Source: an uncultured Eubacteriales bacterium (lineage in GTDB: Bacteria; Bacillota; Clostridia; Oscillospirales; Oscillospiraceae). Taken from it: a stretch of DNA of 64,000 nt. Both the position numbers and the translations under genes were made by a program. The notes beneath the pieces were generated by a model. The model was not told the DNA's origin. It did not search any database and was given only the letters and a program-made list of their open reading frames with translations. Within the stretch, counting starts at the first letter, position 1; the number at the start of each line of letters is the position of its first letter. Positions 3,503-56,348 of this stretch are shown in pieces. Location of the stretch: NCBI GenBank assembly GCA_900540635.1, contig UQGU01000001.1:79312-143311 (forward strand), in the 5' to 3' direction.

Positions 3503-4423
3503 ACAATTCCGCCCTCCTTCTGGATTCTGCGGGTGGTCATCTGCTCATATCCCTTGGCCGTGGCGCAAATATCGTCATTGAAGAACACCCGCCCCTTTTC
3601 GTATTTGCCGAAGTTCCGCACCAGACAGCCACCGCCGCCCAGCACATACAGGCGCATCAGCTCCGGGTCATACTCATGCTCCCGAAGCCTGCGGAAAATA
3701 CCGTCCACATATTCGGAAGCCGTCTGTCGGATGGAGTTCAGATACCTGGGCGCAATGTCCGCGGTTCCTTCCCGCAGTACACGCTCGATGGTCGCGTCAT
3801 TCAGCGCTTTGCCAAACTGCCGCAGAATGGTCTCCCGGACAGCCAGCATACACTGGTGGGTGCCGAACTTCTCCGTATAGCAGTTACTCAATACAGGCCG
3901 GAACTCGTTGATATACATGATATTCATAGTCCCATTACCAATGTCGCAGAGCATATTGGTTCCGGGGAATGCCCGTAGATTAGCCGCAACGGCGGCGAAG
4001 CCCTGCGGATAAATGTCAGCACCTGCAAACGCCACATGATAATCCGTGTCCTGATAGGTGAAATCCACGCTCTCGTTGTGCAGGAGATACGCCCGGAAGC
4101 TGTCTTTCTGCTCGCCGACCCATGTCAGAGGCAGGCCCACGGCCAGATAGACCTTGGCAGCGGTCAGTCGCCGGAGGCTCAGCTCCTTGGCAATGGCCGC
4201 CAGAGTCAGCACATAGTAGTCGCCGTCCATCATCTTGTCAGCGGTGAACTCCTTGTGCCCCTCGCCAATGGTGTAGAAATGACCGTCGTAGATAAGCAGG
4301 TCGTTGTGGAATGTTGGTTCTTTCTCGTAGGTTGTTACGCCGGTAGGAAAGCAGGTGTGGGCGCTTTTGATATTGCCGTAGCCGTGGTCAATTCCGAGAA
4401 TGATTGTGTTGTTGTTCATAAAT
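3499..4423 (-). CDS. parM: ParM/StbA-family actin-like segregation ATPase
   Basis: N-terminus MNNNTIILGIDHGYGNIKS with an AAAGGAA RBS. Actin-fold motifs DIGNGTMN and LGGGG are present. Confidence 0.75.
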
Positions 4424-4513
4424 AAAGATTCCTTTCTGCCGCTTTGCGGACTTAAAAATGATTTTGGGTACAAAAAAGCGGCCTGCCTGGTTAGGAGCAA
4501 GCCGCAAACAAAC

Positions 4514-6439
4514 TTATGCACTTTCTGGGATACTTGGTACATTGGTTTTCTTTCGATTCTGTGAATAGAATTTCTGCCGACAGCCGGAACTGCAATACTT
4601 GGCATCGATGCGTTTCGCCGCAAATACCTTCCCACAGCATTGGCAAGTCATTGTGTATGGAGGATTGAGTTCCCCAGCCAGAATACGTGTCTTCTGACGC
4701 AAATATCGCTTTTGGTTAGCACGGTGTTTCTTTTTCCGGAGTTCTTCTTTTGAAATTTCCTCCGGTGTTGGATCAGGTACAGGAACCTCAAACTGTCCAA
4801 TAAACCTGAAATAAATGTCAACCTCCTGGACACGTTCGCCGCTGCTCTTGTCCGGTGCGTGAACAAGTATCTTGTCCACAAATTCATGGAGCATGGCGGG
4901 AGTAAGCTCGGAGAAGTCCGTATATTTCTTTGCCAATGCCAAAAATTGATCTGCTCGCTCCGTGTCATCCTGAAATTGATCCAAATTCGTTTGATCTGCT
5001 GTCAAAATCTGTTCCAGCTCCGCCTGCTCCTTCTCGTACTCGCCGGACAACAAGTCAAAACGCTTTTCCTCTAATTTACCCATTGCATAAGTCTCATAGA
5101 GCTTTTTGATCAATATATCCAGTTCCGCAATTCGTTTCTGGGCTTTGGCAATTTTGCGCTTCAATTCTTTTGCGGCCTCCTGCTGCTGAATTTGGGAGAC
5201 ACTGCGAACTTTCTGGATGAAATCTTCCCGATTCTGAATGGCATAGGCCGCAGTCAGACGTATGGCATCCAGTAACAGAGTATTGAGCGCCCTGGTACTG
5301 ATGCTGTGGGAAAAGCACTTCTGATTAACCCGTTCCCGATCCAATTCGTAGGTAGAGCAATTGTAGGTGTCTCCGGCATAAGTCCTGCCATTGACGGTGT
5401 GCTTTCCTCGGCGGTTGTACATTTTCGCGCCGCAGTCCGCACAGAATACCAGACCTGTCAGCGGGTTGGCAACGCCGGTTGTGTCTGTCCTGCGAACGGT
5501 CTGCCTGGTTCGCTGGGCCAGCTGCCAGGTCTCCGAATCGATGATCGGCTCATGGGTGTTTTCAAAAATCAGCCAGTCCTCCGGATCATTTGCCACACGC
5601 TTGTCCCGATAGGATTTTGCGTAAGTGCGGAAATTTACCGTGTGCCCCATATACTCCGGCTTGGATAAAATGGCTGTAACGGTATTCCCGTACCAGTCGT
5701 ATGGAGGGTACGGGTTTTCGTTTTCTGCTGTACCGCCCTCCCGAAGAAGCCTCAGTTTGGCATGGTGGTATCCGGGGCACTCAGCCTTTCCGTCCCGCAG
5801 TATTTTGGCAATTTCGTAAGCACCGTGACCCTCAATAGAGAGCTGGAAGATTCTGCGTACAACTGCCGCCGCTTCCGCGTCTACGATCCAGTGATCCTTG
5901 TTGGCGGGATCTTTTTGATAGCCGTACAAGGGACGGTTTGTGATTGGCTTCCCGGACTTTCCCTTGATGGCATAGGCCGCCTTTACTTTCTTGGACTGAT
6001 CCCGAAGATACCACTCGTTCATGATATTCATAAACGGGGCAAACTCGCTGGTCTCCTGGATGTCGCTGTCGATGTTATTCGCCACAGCAACAAAATGAAC
6101 CCCATACTGCCGGAACATTACCTCTGTGTAGAATCCTGTTTGCAGATAGTTTCTGCCGATTCTGCTCATGTCCTTGCACAGCAGGTGGGCAACCTTGCCC
6201 GCCTCAATGTCGGCCACCAGCTTTTTCCAGCCGGGCCGCTCAAAATTGCCGCCGGACCACCCATCGTCCGTGTAGTGGACGATATTGGTGTAGCCCCGCT
6301 GCTGTGCATAGGATTCCAGGTAACGCTTTTGGTTCAGAATGGAGTTCGAGTCTCCCGCAATATCATCGTCACGGGAAAGCCGCTCATAGAGAGCGGTGAT
6401 TTTTTGTTCTTCCGTCTGTCTGGCTGCCATATCAGGCAC
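4514..6439 (-). CDS. Large serine recombinase (TnpX/TndX-like)
   Basis: 641 aa. Resolvase catalytic N-terminus (YERLSRDDD...SGGNFERPGW), recombinase domain, coiled coil, and a C-terminal Cys motif. Confidence 0.9.
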   Translation of the reverse strand: MPDMAARQTEEQKITALYERLSRDDDIAGDSNSILNQKRYLESYAQQRGYTNIVHYTDDGWSGGNFERPGWKKLVADIEAGKVAHLLCKDMSRIGRNYLQTGFYTEVMFRQYGVHFVAVANNIDSDIQETSEFAPFMNIMNEWYLRDQSKKVKAAYAIKGKSGKPITNRPLYGYQKDPANKDHWIVDAEAAAVVRRIFQLSIEGHGAYEIAKILRDGKAECPGYHHAKLRLLREGGTAENENPYPPYDWYGNTVTAILSKPEYMGHTVNFRTYAKSYRDKRVANDPEDWLIFENTHEPIIDSETWQLAQRTRQTVRRTDTTGVANPLTGLVFCADCGAKMYNRRGKHTVNGRTYAGDTYNCSTYELDRERVNQKCFSHSISTRALNTLLLDAIRLTAAYAIQNREDFIQKVRSVSQIQQQEAAKELKRKIAKAQKRIAELDILIKKLYETYAMGKLEEKRFDLLSGEYEKEQAELEQILTADQTNLDQFQDDTERADQFLALAKKYTDFSELTPAMLHEFVDKILVHAPDKSSGERVQEVDIYFRFIGQFEVPVPDPTPEEISKEELRKKKHRANQKRYLRQKTRILAGELNPPYTMTCQCCGKVFAAKRIDAKYCSSGCRQKFYSQNRKKTNVPSIPESA

Positions 6440-8808: not shown

Positions 8809-8863
8809 CTTCAAAAAGCCCTCACAGCAGCCACAAGCAGCATACTGTGAGGGCCAGCCTCAT

Positions 8864-9214
8864 TTATTCGTAGACAAATTCTCTCAAAATGACTTCTTCC
8901 GTACGGCTGCGAATGGAATTGCACCGCCGTACCCATTCCATTTGGTCAGCAGCCTTGAGCGCTTCCGTGATACCCTCTTGGGCCATCATGGCCTTTTCCA
9001 TAATCTCTAGCTGTTCTTGACAGGCCGTTTCGACTTCCTCAAGGTGGGGTAGAAGCCGCTCCGTGGCCAATAGCAGATTATACACGGCAGGCCGGTGCTC
9101 TTTCAGATACGTCCTCCGAAGCCAGCCGTATTTCCCGATGTTATACTCCTTTGTGTCACTCAGCGTAAGATTCGGGATGTGATAATCCCCGCATTTTCTG
9201 TAAGTTAGTTCCAT
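8864..9214 (-). CDS. TnpV-like small transposon-associated protein
   Basis: 116 aa. N-terminus MELTYRKCGDYHIPNLTLSD resembles the TnpV family, recalled from memory and not searched. Confidence 0.45.
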   Translation of the reverse strand: MELTYRKCGDYHIPNLTLSDTKEYNIGKYGWLRRTYLKEHRPAVYNLLLATERLLPHLEEVETACQEQLEIMEKAMMAQEGITEALKAADQMEWVRRCNSIRSRTEEVILREFVYE

Positions 9215-9317
9215 AGCGTACTTCTTTGTGTGAATGTGTGTTGACAGCTATAAATCAGGTCTGGAAGCATTCCTCCCTCATCATAACTGTTTTCCATTCA
9301 CCACAAATGAGCCGCAG

Positions 9318-9367
9318 TCATGATGTAATTCTTGGTGGAAACCACCCTTTATAAATTACATCATGAC
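9318..9367. repeat. Nested palindromes: tcatgatgtaatt ... ggtggaaaccacc ... aattacatcatga
   Basis: A perfect 13-bp inverted repeat enclosing a 5-bp-stem palindrome. Intergenic, in the GC transition zone. Confidence 0.7.
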
Positions 9368-9401
9368 AGAAAATACATCTCAGGCTGCAAGTGTGCGAGT
9401 T

Positions 9402-9418
9402 GTTCGCCATAGGCGAAC
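9402..9418. repeat. Perfect palindrome gttcgcc-ata-ggcgaac
   Basis: Read directly from the sequence. Confidence 0.7.
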
Positions 9419-9519
9419 AAGGAGTGCGCGCGGCAGACTGCAAAAACTTGTCGGAAAAGCCCGTAAGGGGTTTTTCGACAGTCTGAGGGCAGCCATTTTA
9501 CGGCTGCCCTGTCTATATT

Positions 9520-11019: not shown

Positions 11020-11388
11020 TTACTTCTCCTCTTCCTTCACATGAAGCATGATCTCCGCCGCCTGGGCAGGGGTAATGCCAAACACCTTGAATTTCTCCAC
11101 GCACTCCCGCGCCAGGTCCTCCAGGGCCTGCTGCCGCATTGCCTCCAAAATCTTCTCCTCCTTTGTCACCGTTCGTCCGCTGGTGCCGCCGCCAATGAGC
11201 AGGCCTTCCCGCTCCAGCTCCGTCAGCGCCCGCTGCATAGTATTGGGATTCACCTGGGCCTGCATGGCCAGCTCCCGCACCGATGGCACCCGCCCCCCGG
11301 GGGGAAGCTCCCCCCCCAGGACCGCACCCCGGATATTCTCCATGATCTGCTGGTACACCGGCCTGTCGCCGGAAAATTTCCAATTCAC
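11020..11388 (-). CDS. GntR-family (YtrA subfamily) transcriptional regulator; probable GTG start with an AGGAGG RBS
   Basis: Winged HTH PSVRELAMQAQVNPNTMQRALTELEREGLL. Short, YtrA-like size. Confidence 0.85.
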   Translation of the reverse strand: MNWKFSGDRPVYQQIMENIRGAVLGGELPPGGRVPSVRELAMQAQVNPNTMQRALTELEREGLLIGGGTSGRTVTKEEKILEAMRQQALEDLARECVEKFKVFGITPAQAAEIMLHVKEEEK

Positions 11389-11426
11389 ATCTCGTGCCTC
11401 CTGTACTGCTGTATTAGTGTATTCAT

Positions 11427-11455
11427 ACAATAGCACAATAGTACAGGATTGTCAA
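11427..11455 (-). promoter_or_regulatory. Promoter (TTGACA, 17 nt, TATTGT) with a ctgtact/agtacag inverted repeat, for the ytrA-like operon
   Basis: Read on the minus strand as ttgaca-atcctgtactattgtgc-tattgt. Confidence 0.5.
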
Positions 11456-11511
11456 GGGGGAATTCGGTAATTTTTATACCGGTGCCAAACATTCTTTCCC
11501 GCGGCACCTTT

Positions 11512-11589
11512 TTGTCTGTCCTTGGGGCTTTGGGCTCTATTGCCAGTATCGAGTCTCTCGTGCTGTACTTGTACGATAAAAAGAAGTGA
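11512..11589 (+). CDS. 25-aa hydrophobic peptide MSVLGALGSIASIESLVLYLYDKKK (TTG start); type-I-toxin-like small membrane peptide, copy A
   Basis: A single predicted TM helix plus a KKK tail. The stop is followed directly by a GC-rich hairpin. DNA conservation with copy B begins exactly at the TTG. Confidence 0.4.
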   Translation: MSVLGALGSIASIESLVLYLYDKKK

Positions 11590-11720
11590 GCCGTCTGCTG
11601 CAACAGACGACTCACGGCTCTAAGTGCTTTGCACTTAACGTTGTAGGCGTTATGTAGTGGCAACCGTCGGGTTTCCACCACGGGGAGGTGCCTGTTACCA
11701 GCGGGCATCTCCTTGTTTTT
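11590..11720 (+). ncRNA. Conserved 3' region downstream of peptide A (tgtagtggcaaccgtcggg...), ending in a terminator; candidate antitoxin sRNA or 3'UTR
   Basis: A ~25-bp block conserved with the copy at 13150-13200. ggaggtgcct...gggcatctcc-TTGTTTTT forms an intrinsic terminator. Confidence 0.3.
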
Positions 11721-11799
11721 ATATTATAGACCGGCCCCGCCAAAATGTCAAGTGTACATGGTCAGTGACAGGGCACGGCTATTTTTACGGTATAATACG

Positions 11800-12957
11800 T
11801 TATTTTCTCTTTTTCAGCATGGTCTCATGCATGACGACCATCAGGGCCAGTACGGCCAGCAGATAGAAGGGAAACAGGGCCATGGTGGTCTTCCCTGCGA
11901 GCCAGCCGAAGAGCGGGGGCATGAGGCAGTTGCCGATGTAGGCACTGGCCATCTCCACGCCGATGACGGCCTGGGACTTGTCCGCGCCGAAGTGGGCCGG
12001 GGTGGAATGGATGACGCTGGGGTAGATGGGGGCACAGCCCAGGCCGATGAGAATCAGTCCCGCCAGAGCGGCGCTCTCCCCCACCGGCAGCAGCAGGGCT
12101 GCAAGGCCCAGGGCGATGATGCCCTGCCCCATACGAATCATCTGGGTGTCCGTCCACTTGGCCGCCAGGATGCCGCAAACGGCCCTGCCCAGGGTAATGC
12201 CGATGTAGAAGAGGCTGGCAAATCCGGCGGCCGTCTCCGGGGCCACCCCCTTGTGGAGCACCAGATAGCTGCTGGCCCACAGGCCGGTGGTCTGCTCCAG
12301 AGCGCAGTAGCAGAAGAATGCAATCAGGATTTCCTTTGCGCCGGGAAGCCTCAGAATCTTGCCAAGGCCCAGCACCTCGCCGCCTTTCTCCTCCTGGACG
12401 CCCTCCCCTGCCCCGGTCTTCCACAGAGGCAGGCTCAGGAAAATCAGGCAGGTGAGCACCAGCTGAATCAGGCTGATGATCCGGTAGCCCATGGGCCACC
12501 CGGCACCGCCGGACAGGGCAGCGCCCATGATATAGGGGCCAACGGAAGCGCCCACGCCCCACATGCAGTGGAGCCAGCTCATATGGCGGCTGGAGAAATG
12601 GAGGGCCACATAGTTATTGAGGGCCGCATCCACGCTTCCGGCGCCCAGGCCATAGGGCACCGCCCACAGGCACAGCATCCAGAACTGCCCGCTGATTGAA
12701 AATCCGAAAAGGGCCAGAGCGGTCATGGCCACGCTGATGGCCGTCACCCGCCCCGCCCCCAGGCGGCGGGTCAGCCGGTCGCTGAACAGGCTGGAAATGA
12801 CGGTTCCGGCGGAAATAATGCAGAAAATAATGCCGGAATAGGAAACCGGCACCCCAAAGCCCTGGTACATAGACGGCCAGGCCGCCCCCAGCAGGGAATC
12901 CGGCAGGCCTAAGCTGATAAAGGCGGCGTAGATTACCGCCAGAAGCAAATGAATCAT
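11800..12957 (-). CDS. MFS transporter
   Basis: 386 aa from MIHLLLAVIY (AGGAGG RBS). Roughly 12 predicted TM helices. Confidence 0.85.
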   Translation of the reverse strand: MIHLLLAVIYAAFISLGLPDSLLGAAWPSMYQGFGVPVSYSGIIFCIISAGTVISSLFSDRLTRRLGAGRVTAISVAMTALALFGFSISGQFWMLCLWAVPYGLGAGSVDAALNNYVALHFSSRHMSWLHCMWGVGASVGPYIMGAALSGGAGWPMGYRIISLIQLVLTCLIFLSLPLWKTGAGEGVQEEKGGEVLGLGKILRLPGAKEILIAFFCYCALEQTTGLWASSYLVLHKGVAPETAAGFASLFYIGITLGRAVCGILAAKWTDTQMIRMGQGIIALGLAALLLPVGESAALAGLILIGLGCAPIYPSVIHSTPAHFGADKSQAVIGVEMASAYIGNCLMPPLFGWLAGKTTMALFPFYLLAVLALMVVMHETMLKKRK

Positions 12958-13057
12958 CCTGAATGCCTCCTGTGTGTTTGACACCATCCTATCACAAAGC
13001 TTTTCAAAAAGCTATACCAATAGCAGGAATCTACAAGAATCGTTCAAAAGCCTCAAT

Positions 13058-13135
13058 TTGACTGTCCTTGGAGCGTTGGGCTCCATTGCCAGCATTGTGT
13101 CTCTCGTACTGTATCTGCGCGATAAAAAGAAGTGA
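13058..13135 (+). CDS. 25-aa hydrophobic peptide MTVLGALGSIASIVSLVLYLRDKKK (TTG start), copy B
   Basis: Paralog of copy A. The stop is followed by a perfect 12-bp-stem hairpin, gtgagccgtctg...cagacggctcac. Confidence 0.4.
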   Translation: MTVLGALGSIASIVSLVLYLRDKKK

Positions 13136-13286
13136 GCCGTCTGCCTCTAACAGACGGCTCACGCGCTGAGGGCTAGTCTCTCGGCTCACTGAGTACATAT
13201 GTAGTGGCAACCGTCGGGCTCCCAGCACCGGGAGCATGAACAGAGACAGCTTTTTCAGAATGCTGCCCTGGGTAAAATCCGTTTTT

Positions 13287-13757
13287 TCAGTATCCAAGGG
13301 AAATTCTCCTTTCCGACATGGCTGTATAGAGCTTTTGGACGGTGCGAATCGTGCAGGCCACGTCTTCATCCGGGACATCCTCCAGCAGCGGGGCAAGCTG
13401 GGCAAAGACCTGGCCGTTGAAGGTCCCGGACAGGCGCTTGCCCGATTCGGTGACGGTGAGGTACGTAACACGTCCGTCATCCGGAGAGGCCTTCTTTTCC
13501 AGGTACCCCCGCTGCTCCATCTCCTTGACGGTGCGGGTCACTCCGGGGCGGGGAATGTTCAGTGCATCGCTGATGTCGGACACCTTCACCCGGACACCCT
13601 GCCTCTCCAGGCGTTCGATGGTATCGAGATAGTGGATATAGGACGAGCTGACCCCCTTGGGCAGCTCCGGAAGCAGCTCCCGCGCCCGCTTGGCCTGATA
13701 GCAGGCATCCAAAAGGGCCTTGATGTTTTCGACTGTCATGGTTTTCGAACAGCCCAC
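13287..13757 (-). CDS. MarR-family transcriptional regulator (GTG start, GGAAGGAG RBS)
   Basis: Winged HTH LNIPRPGVTRTVKEMEQRGYLEK. Confidence 0.85.
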   Translation of the reverse strand: MGCSKTMTVENIKALLDACYQAKRARELLPELPKGVSSSYIHYLDTIERLERQGVRVKVSDISDALNIPRPGVTRTVKEMEQRGYLEKKASPDDGRVTYLTVTESGKRLSGTFNGQVFAQLAPLLEDVPDEDVACTIRTVQKLYTAMSERRISLGY

Positions 13758-13950: not shown

Positions 13951-14014
13951 AGAACGCACATATTTCCAACCGGTCACTTCCGCAGCGCCCCTCATCCGTC
14001 TCGCCTGCGGCGAG

Positions 14015-14043
14015 CCACCTTCCCCGTAGGGGAAGGTTAGGGG
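14015..14043. repeat. REP-like palindrome, family A (ccttcccc-gta-ggggaagg)
   Basis: Family copies at 14074-14092, 20379-20397 and 28436-28453. Confidence 0.6.
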
Positions 14044-14073
14044 AAAAGCTTCACCGCCGCTGCGGCTGTCCCC

Positions 14074-14092
14074 CTTCCCCGTTGGGGAAGGT
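14074..14092. repeat. REP-like palindrome, family A (ccttcccc-gtt-ggggaagg)
   Basis: The preceding ccgctgcggctgtccccc block is shared with the 20365-20397 copy. Confidence 0.6.
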
Positions 14093-14206
14093 TGGGACGG
14101 TCCTCCGGGGGCCGCCCACAAAGGCGGCTCCCGGGGGTTCTATCTTCCAGCTTCTACAGAAGCATCTACCCCGTTAGGGGTATCTGCTTCTGCTTCTGTA
14201 TCATTT

Positions 14207-14285
14207 GGTATCCGTTGGTACCAAATGATACCAAATGGTACCACTGGTATCCACTGGCTACCGCCGGATGCCGCCGGTATCCGGC
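14207..14285. repeat. Phased array of eight roughly 10-bp units with a GGTAYC core
   Basis: ggtatccgtt, ggtaccaaat, gataccaaat, ggtaccact, ggtatccact, ggctaccgcc, ggatgccgcc, ggtatccggc. Contains two palindromic TGGTACCA sites. Confidence 0.7.
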
Positions 14286-14314
14286 GGCAGCTCTTCCCCG
14301 ACGGGGCAGGGCAG

Positions 14315-14348
14315 AAAAAAGCAGAGGCCCGGAAGCCTCTGCTTTTGG
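14315..14348 (-). terminator. Bidirectional intrinsic terminator ending the fhs-fchA-folD-FNT operon
   Basis: aaaaaa-gcagaggc-ccggaa-gcctctgc-tttt. Confidence 0.7.
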
Positions 14349-18654: not shown

Positions 18655-18761
18655 AGTTATCAATCTCCTTGTATTGTGTAATCGGCTCCCTTGCCGTGAG
18701 TTTGGCTCGGGTGCATACAGGACTTATGCGGGTCACCGTGAGTCTGGGTCGCCGCACGTTT

Positions 18762-18785
18762 CTATCGGTACTTTCGTACCGATAG
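18762..18785 (-). promoter_or_regulatory. Perfect 11-bp-arm palindrome ctatcggtac-tt-tcgtaccgatag at the predicted fhs transcription start; candidate operator
   Basis: On the minus strand a TTGACA-17-TATTCT promoter at 18787-18815 puts the transcription start inside this palindrome. A half-site CGTTTCTATCG recurs inverted at 18911-18921. Confidence 0.45.
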
Positions 18786-55661: not shown

Positions 55662-55918
55662 ACGCAACGGTATTGGCATCCCTGATCACGGGGCTGCTGT
55701 CTCTGGCGGGGGTCATGCTGAGCAATCTCCTGTCGGACCGGCGGCGGGAAAATGCCCTGCGGACAGCCCAGGCCGTAACGGATGAGCAGCTGCGGCAGCT
55801 GACAAGGGAGGTCCGGGAGCACAACAATTTTGCCCGGCGGATGCCGGTGGTAGAAGAGCAGATCAAAGTCATCAATCACAGGTTAGAGGACCTGGAAAAG
55901 GAAGGAGCAAAATCATGA
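55658..55918 (+). CDS. Small N-terminal-TM coiled-coil protein; lysis-associated
   Basis: 86 aa, coupled to the holin gene. Confidence 0.4.
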   Translation: MNATVLASLITGLLSLAGVMLSNLLSDRRRENALRTAQAVTDEQLRQLTREVREHNNFARRMPVVEEQIKVINHRLEDLEKEGAKS

Positions 55919-56166
55919 TCAATTGGAAGGTACGTCTGAAAAATGTGAATTTCTGGCTGGCGGCAATCCCCGCCGCCCTGCTGGTAGCCCAGAGCATCGC
56001 CGCTCTGTTTGGCTTTGCCCTGCCCGTACAGGCAGTGGAGGGAAAGCTGCTGGACCTGATCAATGCAGTGTTTGGACTGCTGACCATTCTCGGCATCGTC
56101 AATGACCCCACCACCCGCGGCCTGCGCGACAGCACCCGGGCAATGGAATATCAAAATCCCAACTAA
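55915..56166 (+). CDS. Holin, LL-H family
   Basis: MINWKVRLKNVNFWLAAIPAALLV matches the LL-H holin N-terminal signature. Confidence 0.65.
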   Translation: MINWKVRLKNVNFWLAAIPAALLVAQSIAALFGFALPVQAVEGKLLDLINAVFGLLTILGIVNDPTTRGLRDSTRAMEYQNPN

Positions 56167-56174
56167 TACGCCAT

Positions 56175-56200
56175 GGGGCGGCTGCTTTTGCAGCCGCCCC
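56175..56200 (+). terminator. Hairpin ggggcggctgc-tttt-gcagccgcccc after the holin gene
   Basis: 11-bp perfect stem. There is no immediate T-run, but a T7 run lies 15 nt further on. Confidence 0.4.
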
Positions 56201-56348
56201 GGAAGCGCAGCATTACCCACTTTTTTTCGCAGGCGTGCAAACAAGTGCACAAAAATGCCCCCTTTTTTCTCTTAGCATAACTATCCCACAGAGTGGAACA
56301 GCCAGTAAGAGGAACAGGGGGCATTTTGTTTACGTAATATGTCGGCCC

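What the first reader, a model, noticed from the sequence alone, without database searches (positions are those of the whole stretch)
11512..13235. Two paralogous 25-aa hydrophobic KKK-tailed peptide loci, each with a conserved 3' region, flanking an MFS transporter gene
About 180 bp is duplicated at roughly 80% identity on the same strand at 11505-11700 and 13052-13235. Similarity starts exactly at a TTG that opens a 25-codon ORF encoding M[ST]VLGALGSIASI[EV]SLVLYL[YR]DKKK. The stop is followed immediately by a strong hairpin and then by a conserved block tgtagtggcaaccgtcggg. This is the layout of type I toxin-antitoxin loci, with a small TM toxin and an antisense RNA pairing to the conserved 3' block. 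Alternatively these are small membrane-protein accessory genes. The two copies bracketing one transporter gene also suggests a past duplication or insertion event.
Basis: seen in the sequence. Interest (0 to 1): 0.6.

Follow-up and report, generated by a model that had tools for sequence, protein, structure and literature searches.

The report
Two decayed toxin–antisense RNA modules
The two repeats are worn-down copies of a multi-copy cassette from uncultured gut Clostridia that pairs a tiny membrane-peptide gene with an opposing small-RNA gene, the layout of type I toxin-antitoxin systems. Here both copies have lost the peptide's promoter and start, only one keeps the small-RNA gene, and no library or paper I searched describes the family.

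Summary
The duplication is real: 88 nt at 86% and 37 nt at 89%, with only two copies in the window. The 25-codon frame is genuinely coding. Across 34 unique relatives, variation sits at codon position 3, and no other frame shows this.

The "TTG start" is not a start. In intact relatives (~440 nt) it is Leu-6 of a 30-aa peptide, or an internal Leu of the 44-51 aa forms. Upstream of it lie a consensus promoter, a ~150-nt structured leader and a Shine-Dalgarno site. Both window copies lack all of these.

Intact elements also carry a convergent consensus promoter on the opposite strand and an intrinsic terminator whose U-tract is the KKK codons. Together these specify a ~140-nt antisense RNA covering the mRNA 3' UTR.

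Copy 1 keeps the antisense gene. Copy 2 lost it in a 1.35-kb deletion that also removed a MATE transporter gene.

Decay is one-sided. Of 55 copies, 23 lost the peptide side only and none lost the antisense side only. This fits toxin-antitoxin logic.

No homology was found to any Pfam, NCBIfam, PHROGs, PADLOC or Rfam family. Toxicity and transcription remain untested.

The parts
11450..11478 (+). Copy 1: only promoter-like site upstream of the ORF remnant (TTGTCA-17-TTTTAT, 9/12, lacks the key A2 of the -10). Probably not a functional toxin promoter. It overlaps the divergent GntR-operon promoter.
   Evidence: best + strand score 9/12 in all c1-type copies, against 11-12/12 in intact copies; not reported by the promoter scan; the GntR promoter is on the - strand at 11455..11427.
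11512..11589 (+). Copy 1: 5'-truncated peptide ORF remnant (25 codons plus TGA). It corresponds to codons 6-30 of the intact 30-aa form and has no SD or canonical start. It carries a private V14E change that puts a charge in the TM segment.
   Evidence: Codon test. V14E is seen only in this copy.
11576..11615 (-). Copy 1: hairpin 1 plus U-tract, the intrinsic terminator of the antisense RNA (stem 11615..11586, tail TTCTTTTTAT). The U-tract is the reverse complement of the D-KKK codons.
   Evidence: 13 pairs, 7 GC. (the stop-codon G/A covaries with its partner, GC 35 / AU 7). (col 20-40 is C-G in 25 copies and C·A in 17 on the + strand, which reads as G-C or G·U on the - strand).
11620..11642 (.). 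Copy 1: hairpin 2 (TAAGTGC-ttt-GCACTTA). The structure is conserved but the sequence is hypervariable between copies.
   Evidence: four pairs with compensatory changes. (pi=0.34 among orthologous c1 copies vs 0.06 in the flank).
11653..11678 (.). Copy 1: the conserved block (TGTAGTGGCAACCGTCGGGTTTCCAC). In intact mRNAs it is the 3' partner of two leader segments (5' end and GACGGUUGCC), and it lies inside the antisense RNA target.
   Evidence: (helix 1: 10 pairs, 2 compensatory; helix 3: 10 pairs, 99.6% paired, nearly invariant).
11680..11721 (+). Copy 1: + strand intrinsic terminator (17-bp stem plus T-run). Its complement is the 5' end of the antisense RNA.
   Evidence: (five near-invariant G·U pairs). 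(99.6% paired on the + strand vs 71% on the - strand).
11723..11751 (-). Copy 1: antisense-RNA promoter, perfect TTGACA-17-TATAAT. The predicted sRNA runs from about 11716 to about 11576 (~140 nt).
   Evidence: 12/12. (same position, 10-12/12 in nearly all copies). (fold -57.8 kcal/mol, z=-5.6).
13058..13135 (+). Copy 2: 5'-truncated peptide ORF remnant. The upstream junction AATTTG|ACTGTCC matches a deletion between AATTTG and AATTTTG repeats of the intact form.
   Evidence: the intact copy 2 in L005 and L015 carries 190 extra nt here. (the same junction occurs in 13 unique copies).
13122..13162 (-). Copy 2: hairpin 1 plus U-tract, a - strand intrinsic terminator. It now lies between marR and the MFS gene.
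   Evidence: 14 pairs, 8 GC, tail TTCTTTTTAT.
13166..13184 (.). Copy 2: hairpin 2 (CTGAGGG-ctagt-CTCTCGG, with a G·U pair on the + strand).
13200..13234 (.). Copy 2: conserved block followed by the deletion junction. Positions 13216-13234 (GGGCTCCCAGCACCGGGAG) match both the element and, in reverse complement, the N-terminal coding region of a MATE gene. The + terminator and the antisense promoter are gone.
   Evidence: window 13058-13234 aligns to L015 4016-4191, and window 13216-13743 aligns to L015 5546-6073. (best - promoter only 7/12).
13219..13296 (-). Remnant of the MATE transporter N-terminus (LDTEKTDFTQGSILKKLSLFMLPVLG) left by the 1.35-kb deletion.
   Evidence: compare L015 MATE: LNTEKTDFTQGSILKKLSLFMLPVLGALI.... 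(L015 gene table: MatE 4287-5627).

Best explanation
The two repeats are decayed members of a dispersed, multi-copy ~440-nt module found in the chromosomes of uncultured human-gut Clostridia.

Anatomy of the intact module (shown by sequence analysis). A sigma-70 consensus promoter drives a ~380-nt mRNA. It has a ~150-nt structured leader, then an ORF for a single-TM, Lys-tailed peptide, then a 3' UTR of three hairpins ending in an intrinsic terminator. The peptide is 30 aa where an upstream 19-codon ORF ends in ATGA overlap with its start, and 44-51 aa where the two frames are fused. The extreme 5' end of the mRNA and a second leader segment pair with the conserved 3' block, closing the molecule. 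A second consensus promoter just beyond the mRNA terminator fires in the opposite direction. It makes a ~140-nt antisense RNA that ends at the hairpin abutting the stop codon, with the KKK codons serving as its U-tract. This RNA is fully complementary to the whole 3' UTR.

Inferred mechanism, by analogy with Gram-positive type I toxin-antitoxin systems. The peptide is a membrane toxin. The antisense RNA pairs with the 3' UTR, displaces the protective 5'-3' helix and creates an RNase III substrate, so the mRNA is silenced or degraded.

In this window. Copy 1 (11512-11751) lost the toxin promoter, leader, SD and first codons, but keeps a complete antisense-RNA gene. It is most likely an orphan antitoxin that can act in trans on paralogous mRNAs, which share about 65 nt of near-identical target. 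Copy 2 (13058-13234) lost the same 5' part and later also its antisense promoter. It is a remnant whose surviving hairpin now acts at most as a terminator between marR and the MFS gene.
For: Coding frame. In codons 3-25 of 34 unique copies, variable columns fall 6/3/12 by codon position (3/1/10 in intact copies). Synonymous variants are enriched (Fisher p=7e-4; 3e-5 in intact copies). None of the five other frames shows this. Distant members keep LGAxGAxASIVSLVLYLxD(K/R)KKK despite diverged DNA.

Promoters. All intact copies have promoters scoring 11-12/12 at fixed positions on both strands.

Strand-specific RNA signals. The + terminator keeps five G·U pairs and is 99.6% paired on the + strand vs 71% on the - strand. 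Hairpin 1 is followed by a U-tract only on the - strand, and its stop-codon base covaries with its partner. Hairpin 2 has four covarying pairs.

Full-length mRNA structure. 97.3% of cells are paired, and 0 of 500 shuffles reach the covariation score. The slid controls are far lower. The 5'-3' closing helix has 2 compensatory pairs. The L014 mRNA folds at -157.8 kcal/mol, z=-5.9.

Truncation of the window copies. Intact syntenic versions exist in L005 and L015. Junctions are mapped to the nucleotide.

Relaxed selection on the remnants. Intact copies show 12 synonymous: 4 nonsynonymous variants; variants seen only in truncated copies are 2:7 (p=0.017). In c1 orthologues the antisense 5' half is the most conserved segment (pi 0.013, against 0.10 for the ORF remnant and 0.06 for the flank).

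One-sided decay. 28 copies are intact, 23 lost the peptide side only, 4 lost both and 0 lost the antisense side only. There are at least 5 independent 5' junctions.

Layout. It matches the Gram-positive type I families, where the asRNA lies on the 3' side and partly overlaps the mRNA (PMC8594479; PMC6563280).
Against: No transcript, 5'/3'-end or translation data are available. Promoters, terminators and RNA ends are predictions.

Toxicity and antisense repression are untested, and the peptide has no detectable homology to any proven toxin.

The true start is unsettled. It is ATG, ATT or ATA at the 30-aa position, with a 10-nt SD spacing, and an upstream in-frame ATG exists in many copies.

Helix 3 of the fold-back is almost invariant, so it is neither supported nor refuted by covariation.

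Conservation of the antisense gene in truncated copies could reflect gene conversion from intact paralogues rather than selection. The hypervariable hairpin 2 shows that exchange does occur.

The sample of independent decay events is small.

No intact copy is seen in this 64-kb window, so a target for the copy-1 sRNA in this genome is assumed, not shown.
Confidence: 0.7

Rival explanations
1. The family encodes a harmless small membrane protein, for example a regulator or accessory subunit of transporters, whose level is tuned by a cis-antisense RNA. It is not a toxin-antitoxin pair.
For: Toxicity is untested. In the window the copies lie among transporter genes: ABC, MFS and a former MATE. 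Many small TM proteins with charged tails are benign regulators (general knowledge).
Against: Intact copies occur in at least 8 unrelated contexts with no recurrent partner gene. Examples are Band_7/CBAH, GidB, LysR/SNF, a two-component system and RACo. The family is multi-copy and sometimes tandem. Decay is strictly one-sided, with 23 copies losing the peptide side only and 0 losing the antisense side only. A benign gene does not predict this.
Confidence: 0.15
2. One reading: the two 25-codon TTG ORFs in the window are themselves functional peptide genes, and the window holds two live type I toxin loci.
For: Both frames are intact, and the differences between the two copies are mostly synonymous. 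The same truncated forms persist with open frames in many strains.
Against: The TTG is an internal Leu codon in intact relatives. Neither copy has an SD, a good promoter (best 9/12, lacking A2 of the -10) or the leader. Most shared polymorphisms are inherited from or exchanged with intact copies. Variants private to truncated copies are 2 synonymous: 7 nonsynonymous, including V14E in copy 1. The ORF remnant is less conserved than the neighbouring intergenic flank.
Confidence: 0.07
3. The repeats are - strand cis-regulatory or terminator elements serving the neighbouring genes. They would act as a leader or attenuator ahead of the GntR-ABC operon and the MFS gene, and the + strand ORF is incidental.
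For: On the - strand, each copy places a strong terminator upstream of the next gene. Copy 1 has a - strand promoter pointing towards the GntR operon.
Against: The codon signature shows + strand coding. The + terminator is a + strand structure. The same module occurs next to unrelated genes in either orientation. The GntR operon has its own promoter. Rfam gives no cis-regulatory match.
Confidence: 0.05
4. The direct repeats are scars of a duplication or insertion that brought in the MFS gene, for example attachment-site duplicates of a mobile element.
For: Two same-strand repeats bracket a single gene.
Against: There is no integrase or transposase between them. Each copy has its own distinct junction, conserved across strains. 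Relatives carry an intact module at copy-2's site and a third copy beyond the ABC genes. Some 29 metagenome contigs hold the element, at this locus and at other sites, and intact copies sit in at least 8 unrelated gene contexts.
Confidence: 0.03

Closest known systems
Bacillus subtilis TxpA/RatA and BsrG/SR4 (and BsrE/SR5, YonT/SR6) type I TA systems
   Same: These are Gram-positive systems. The toxin is a small single-TM peptide with a charged C-terminus. The antitoxin RNA is transcribed convergently from the 3' side and overlaps the 3' UTR and the end of the ORF. Long perfect complementarity suggests RNase III-mediated decay (layout per PMC8594479; PMC6563280).
   Different: There is no sequence or RNA-family similarity; Rfam gives no hit on either strand, and Pfam and NCBIfam give none. 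Here the antisense target also serves as the intramolecular partner of the mRNA 5' end and leader. The start region contains an upstream ORF that is either coupled or fused.
Clostridioides difficile type I TA modules (CD2517.1-RCd8, CD2907.1-RCd9, CD0956.2-RCd10 and prophage homologues)
   Same: Both are found in Clostridia. The toxin and antitoxin genes overlap convergently. The toxins are 30-56 aa with a hydrophobic N-part and a Lys-rich C-tail. The long complementary region suggests a degradation mechanism (PMC6563280).
   Different: No homology was detected. tblastn against 50,697 phage and 72,556 plasmid records, which include C. difficile elements, gives nothing, and PHROGs gives nothing significant. 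The present family sits in chromosomal intergenic sites, not on prophages, plasmids or next to CRISPR arrays.
Enterococcus faecalis par (Fst/RNA II)
   Same: [quoted passage not shown] Some loci lie between transporter operons (PMC7472228).
   Different: Fst toxins are defined by a PxxxG(C) motif and a conserved Trp, and this peptide has neither. par uses one shared bidirectional terminator and DRa/DRb repeats with a ~40-nt RNA II. Here there are two separate terminators and about 140 nt of continuous overlap.
hok/mok/sok (and Helicobacter AapA1/IsoA1)
   Same: A long-distance 5'-3' pairing closes the full-length toxin mRNA. An upstream overlapping reading frame (mok) is coupled to toxin translation. 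Chromosomal copies are often inactivated (established knowledge; PMC6733600 and PMC9841398 are listed but were not read).
   Different: Sok and IsoA act at the 5' leader or start, whereas here the antisense RNA covers the 3' UTR. Those are Gram-negative families with no sequence relation (Rfam negative).

Membership tests
Type I toxin-antitoxin system (class) | Small (<60 aa) hydrophobic or TM peptide ORF that is really coding | tested here: met
   The family shows a codon-position and synonymous signature and protein-level conservation in distant members. The window copies, however, hold only the last 25 codons, with no SD or start.
Type I toxin-antitoxin system (class) | An antisense RNA gene with its own promoter and terminator, complementary to the toxin mRNA | tested here: met
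   In silico only. A convergent promoter scoring 10-12/12 sits at a fixed position in 51 of 55 copies, with a - strand intrinsic terminator. This is met in window copy 1 and not met in copy 2 (7/12).
Type I toxin-antitoxin system (class) | Both RNAs are actually transcribed | not testable with these tools
   No transcriptome data are accessible. Strand-specific G·U patterns are indirect support.
Type I toxin-antitoxin system (class) | The peptide is toxic when expressed, and the antisense RNA neutralises it | not testable with these tools
   Only evolutionary proxies exist. Decay is one-sided (23 vs 0), and selection is relaxed after 5' truncation.
Fst/Ldr superfamily | PxxxG(C) motif and conserved Trp in the hydrophobic domain; match to an Fst or Ldr family model | tested here: not met
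   No Pro or Trp occurs in the core. No significant Pfam or NCBIfam match was found at E<=10. The defining features are taken from PMC7472228.
Fst/RNA II (par) locus architecture | A single shared bidirectional terminator plus direct repeats DRa/DRb that provide 5' complementarity | tested here: not met
   There are two distinct terminators about 95 nt apart, with continuous overlap between them. The leader/block repeat is inverted, so it pairs within the mRNA rather than with the asRNA.
Known antitoxin RNA families in Rfam (RatA, SR4-type, Sok, Sib, Rdl, IstR, OhsC, SprA1as and others) | Covariance-model match | tested here: not met
   No match at E<=10 in window 11300-13400, and none at E<=1 over the elements in L005 and L012; the only sub-threshold hits there lie outside the element.
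C. difficile CD2517.1 / CD0956.2-type toxins | Sequence homology of the toxin; location on prophages, plasmids or beside CRISPR arrays | tested here: inconclusive
   tblastn and blastn against the phage and plasmid collections and PHROGs gave no hits. The reference toxin sequences were not compared directly, and BLAST's low-complexity filter may mask TM peptides.
hok/sok | Antisense RNA targeting the mok/hok leader at the 5' side; Hok family peptide | tested here: not met
   The antisense gene lies at the 3' side. No Pfam Hok match was found. Only the fold-back and upstream-ORF principles resemble hok.

The most novel reading that the evidence does not exclude
The toxin-less copies are not junk. 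They would be selected 'orphan antitoxin' genes whose sRNA, through the ~65-nt near-invariant block-terminator segment, silences intact paralogues or incoming copies in trans. The structure-conserving but hypervariable hairpins (loops of hairpin 1 and all of hairpin 2) would be recognition determinants under diversifying selection. That would amount to an intragenomic toxin / anti-toxin-RNA arms race in a dominant gut commensal lineage. It would also explain why independent deletions repeatedly remove only the toxin side.
Probability: 0.25. Interest if true: 0.65.

Novelty: new member of a known kind. Interest (0 to 1): 0.5.

Why it matters
Type I toxin-antitoxin systems are hard to find by homology. 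They are essentially uncharted in the uncultured Clostridia that dominate the human gut.

This family comprises about 100 protein clusters, and single variants occur on more than 580 and 620 contigs. It carries no functional annotation in the sources searched; the only source names are "hypothetical protein". It has no Pfam, NCBIfam, PHROGs, PADLOC or Rfam model.

The work here gives a complete, testable anatomy: two promoters, two terminators, a leader-3'UTR fold-back, and coupled or fused start variants. It also gives a natural series of decay intermediates. The anatomy could seed annotation models and experiments on RNA-controlled membrane toxins in commensals.

For this window specifically, the practical message is a caution. 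The tidy 25-codon "gene" is a pseudogene fragment, and the live feature is most likely the opposite-strand sRNA gene of copy 1.

Tried and rejected
1. Rfam scans of the window (gathering threshold, and E<=10 locally) and of L005 and L012 found nothing for the element.

2. An exact 18-mer scan of GTDB genomes returned 13 loci. Eleven were chance hits in unrelated phyla and were discarded.

3. My first codon-position count was polluted by copies with different C-terminal lengths. I redid it on gap-free copies.

4. Pfam, NCBIfam, PHROGs and PADLOC gave only insignificant hits, such as the LPXTG anchor (E=0.017, below cutoff) and phrog_1470 (E=0.04).

5. blastn and tblastn against plasmids and phages found nothing. 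The one Enterococcus phage hit at E=4 is noise.

6. A full-text search for the peptide strings found 0 papers.

7. The marginal covariance-model hit at 56166-56336(-) was inspected. It is two terminator hairpins beside a holin-like gene, not a copy.

8. I considered that the - strand ORFs spanning each copy (107 aa and 149 aa) might be real. The two copies are in different - strand frames across the peptide region, and no - strand frame shows synonymous enrichment, so I rejected this.

9. The idea that the leader CCUCC loop sequesters the SD was not tested further. The motif is absent or altered in L061, L065 and L067, so I make no claim.

10. Two script or tool errors were fixed and rerun.
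Full report
OBSERVATION. The duplication is real and far beyond chance. The repeat finder reports 11511-11598 vs 13057-13144 (88 nt, 86%) and 11651-11687 vs 13198-13234 (37 nt, 89%) on the same strand, with a diverged stretch between them (alignment). The two most conserved strings each occur exactly twice in the window even with 3 mismatches allowed, against 0 in shuffles. A covariance model of the region run without filters finds only these two copies, at 162 and 104 bits. A marginal third hit proved to be unrelated terminator hairpins. The 25-codon TTG ORFs, the hairpin abutting the stop and the block TGTAGTGGCAACCGTCGGG are all as described.

THE OTHER STRAND. The promoter and terminator scan changed the picture. 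On the - strand a perfect TTGACA-17-TATAAT (11751..11723) points into copy 1. The hairpin after the stop codon is followed, on the - strand only, by TTCTTTTTAT. So the "KKK" codons are also the U-tract of a - strand intrinsic terminator, and the same terminator exists in copy 2. On the + strand, a 17-bp terminator sits at 11680-11716. Rfam has no family matching either strand.

RELATIVES SHOW THE WINDOW COPIES ARE TRUNCATED. I probed public collections with non-coding parts of the element, so as not to bias the coding test.
- The 18-mer block found two genuine genome loci among chance hits.
- The terminator 26-mer found 29 metagenome contigs.
- L005 and L015 are syntenic with the window (ABC-ABC-GntR-copy1-MFS-copy2-...). 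Their copy 2 carries about 190 extra bases upstream: a consensus + promoter, a long leader, an SD and a proper start.
- The commonest site of the element, between Band_7 genes and a CBAH gene, shows the same full anatomy (L014).

A protein search with the long ORF found an unannotated family of 37 clusters, rising to about 100 with a profile. None has a Pfam domain or a functional name. Members are 30 aa (MTSALLTVLGALGSIASIVSLVLYLYDKKK, on more than 580 contigs) or 42-51 aa. The window's TTG is Leu-6 of the 30-aa form.

BLAST of the full L014 element against all fetched loci gave 73 copies, 64 of them unique. They fall into three classes:
- full length;
- 5'-truncated at query position 209-238;
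- doubly truncated, like window copy 2.

IS THE PEPTIDE FRAME CODING? Yes. In codons 3-25 of 34 unique gap-free copies, variable columns fall 6/3/12 by codon position (3/1/10 in intact copies). Synonymous variants are enriched (14 of 54 possible vs 11 of 153; Fisher p=7e-4; 3e-5 for intact copies). None of the other five frames shows this. Distant members keep LGAxG(S/A)xASIVSLVLYLxD(K/R)K(K/E)K.

TWO CONVERGENT GENES. Every intact copy has a + promoter and a - promoter scoring 11-12/12 at fixed positions, including the most diverged copies at about 75% identity. Three strand-specific signals show that both strands matter:
- The + terminator keeps five near-invariant G·U pairs. It is 99.6% paired on the + strand and only 71% on the - strand.
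- Hairpin 1 carries its U-tract only on the - strand. Its stop-codon base (TGA or TAA) covaries with the opposite base (GC 35 / AU 7).
- Hairpin 2 differs in sequence in almost every lineage yet stays paired, with four covarying pairs.

The predicted antisense RNA of window copy 1 (11716->11574) folds at -57.8 kcal/mol, z=-5.6.

THE CONSERVED BLOCK. In an alignment of 23 diverse full-length mRNAs, RNAalifold pairs the block with two leader segments: the extreme 5' end (GUGGAAGCCC with GGGUUUCCAC) and GACGGUUGCC with GGCAACCGUC. The pair counter gives 97.3% paired cells, and 0 of 500 shuffles reach the covariation score. Slid controls are far lower. The closing helix has two compensatory pairs, including G-C to A-U and G·U to U·G in the L053 and L065 lineage. 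The second helix is almost invariant, so covariation is uninformative there. The block is therefore both the intramolecular partner of the leader and part of the antisense target.

An invariant GGAATGGAGGC ATG opens an upstream frame. In L014-type copies it ends at a TGA overlapping the peptide ATG (ATATGA). In the others it is fused in frame, giving the 44-55 aa forms. Which start is used is not settled.

WHAT HAPPENED IN THE WINDOW. Copy 2's 5' junction (AATTTG|ACTGTCC) corresponds to a deletion between AATTTG and AATTTTG repeats of the intact form. Its 3' end is a 19-nt junction at 13216-13234 that matches both the element and, in reverse complement, the N-terminal coding region of a MATE gene. 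A 1.35-kb deletion removed the + terminator, the antisense promoter and most of that MATE gene, leaving a 26-codon MATE stub. Copy 1 is 5'-truncated in all strains sampled but keeps the block, the + terminator and a 12/12 antisense promoter. The only + strand promoter-like site before copy 1 scores 9/12 and lacks the critical A2. Neither copy has an SD.

SELECTION AFTER TRUNCATION. Variants in intact copies are 12 synonymous: 4 nonsynonymous. Variants seen only in truncated copies are 2:7 (Fisher p=0.017). The latter include the window's V14E, a charge in the TM helix. Among orthologous copy-1 loci, nucleotide diversity by segment is as follows:
- flank: 0.06
- ORF remnant: 0.10
- hairpin 2: 0.34
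- block-to-terminator segment (the 5' half of the antisense RNA): 0.013

Constraint therefore sits on the antisense gene, not on the peptide remnant. Gene conversion could contribute to this pattern.

ONE-SIDED DECAY. Of 55 judgeable unique copies, 28 are intact on both sides, 23 lost the peptide side but keep the antisense promoter, 4 lost both, and none keeps the peptide gene without the antisense promoter. At least five independent 5' junction types exist. Copy-2-type loci that still have the antisense promoter exist in other strains, so the toxin side was lost first. This is what a toxin-antitoxin pair predicts and a benign gene does not.

MECHANISM, WITH EVIDENCE STATUS.
- Shown in silico: a coding TM peptide, two convergent consensus promoters, two strand-specific terminators, a structured leader with a 5'-3' fold-back, and the decay pattern.
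- Inferred by analogy: the peptide is a membrane toxin. The ~140-nt antisense RNA pairs with the 3' UTR, competes with the leader for the block, frees the 5' end and forms an RNase III substrate, preventing toxin synthesis.
- Inferred for the window: copy 1 is an orphan antitoxin gene able to pair with paralogous mRNAs over about 65 near-identical nt. Copy 2 is a remnant whose hairpin 1 may now terminate marR read-through ahead of the MFS gene.

COMPARISON WITH KNOWN SYSTEMS. The layout is that of the Gram-positive type I families, with the asRNA on the 3' side and partly overlapping the mRNA (PMC8594479). It also matches the C. difficile modules: convergent overlapping genes and 30-56 aa toxins with a hydrophobic N-part and a Lys-rich tail (PMC6563280). 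The 5'-end-sequestering helix recalls Fst RNA I (PMC7472228). The fold-back plus upstream ORF recall hok/mok.

Membership in any of these families fails on homology. There is no Rfam, Pfam, NCBIfam, PHROGs or PADLOC match. The Fst PxxxG/Trp motif is absent. There are no hits on plasmids or phages. No paper in the searchable library contains the peptide.

I therefore file it as a candidate new family of a known kind. The window holds two decayed members.

LIMITS. There are no expression or toxicity data. The start codon is unresolved. The number of independent evolutionary events is small. Covariance-model E-values are rough. BLAST's low-complexity filter may hide weak TM-peptide similarity. 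The organism is known only as an uncultured gut Clostridia lineage (record titles; window GC 57%).

Noticed in passing
window 18665-18783 (-): A full-length match to the FTHFS RNA motif (RF02981): 91.6 bits against a gathering score of 72.6.
   Followed up: no
window 13219-13296 (-): A 26-codon stub of a MATE transporter gene (LDTEKTDFTQGSILKKLSLFMLPVLG) directly after marR. Relatives such as L015 have the full 446-aa gene. A 1.35-kb deletion between two 19-nt near-identical sequences removed the rest.
   Followed up: yes
window ~8860-9486; L005 4110-4593; L028 3988-4471: Synteny with L005 stops at window 9486, exactly where L005 and L028 carry a third, full-length copy of the element. The window instead has unrelated sequence with a TnpV-like ORF (8864-9214, -), which suggests a mobile-element insertion or replacement.
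   Followed up: partly
window 14005-14041, 14060-14096, 14279-14315 and 14198-14241: Three copies of a 37-nt direct repeat, each containing the palindrome CCTTCCCCGTAGGGGAAGG, plus a 22+22-nt palindrome (GTATCATTTGGTATCCGTTGGT / ACCAAATGATACCAAATGGTAC). They lie between marR and the formate/nitrite transporter gene.
   Followed up: no
window 55915-56166 (+): An 83-aa ORF resembling a phage holin, followed by two terminator hairpins. This hints at a prophage region.
   Followed up: no
all copies; window 11576-11589 and 13122-13135: The terminal Lys codons (AAAAAGAAG) double as the U-tract of the antisense terminator. In diverged members with inserted C-terminal residues (…EKDNEKKK, …MHNKKK, …THDKKK) the ORF still ends in AAAAAGAAGTGA. 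The KKK tail is therefore under dual protein and RNA constraint.
   Followed up: partly
L045 4077-4562, L046/L012, L052, c1-type and c2-type copies: Five independent 5' deletions all end within about 30 nt (query positions 209-238), and four of them within 12 nt, at the start of the TM-coding region. It is unexplained why about 70 nt of ORF remnant beyond the antisense terminator is always retained. Possible reasons are a recombination hotspot or a functional need.
   Followed up: partly
L053 2863-3830; L067 2380-3260: Some genomes carry two diverged copies in direct tandem. L053 copy A has a 1-nt difference in the A-run that extends the ORF to 70 aa, which is either a frameshift or an assembly error.
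   Followed up: no
L005 1873-1900 (-): In L005 copy 1, the antisense promoter spacer has suffered a ~12-nt deletion (TTGACA…TATAAT spacing is destroyed). This is a second, independent way of losing the antisense gene after the toxin side was already gone.
   Followed up: partly
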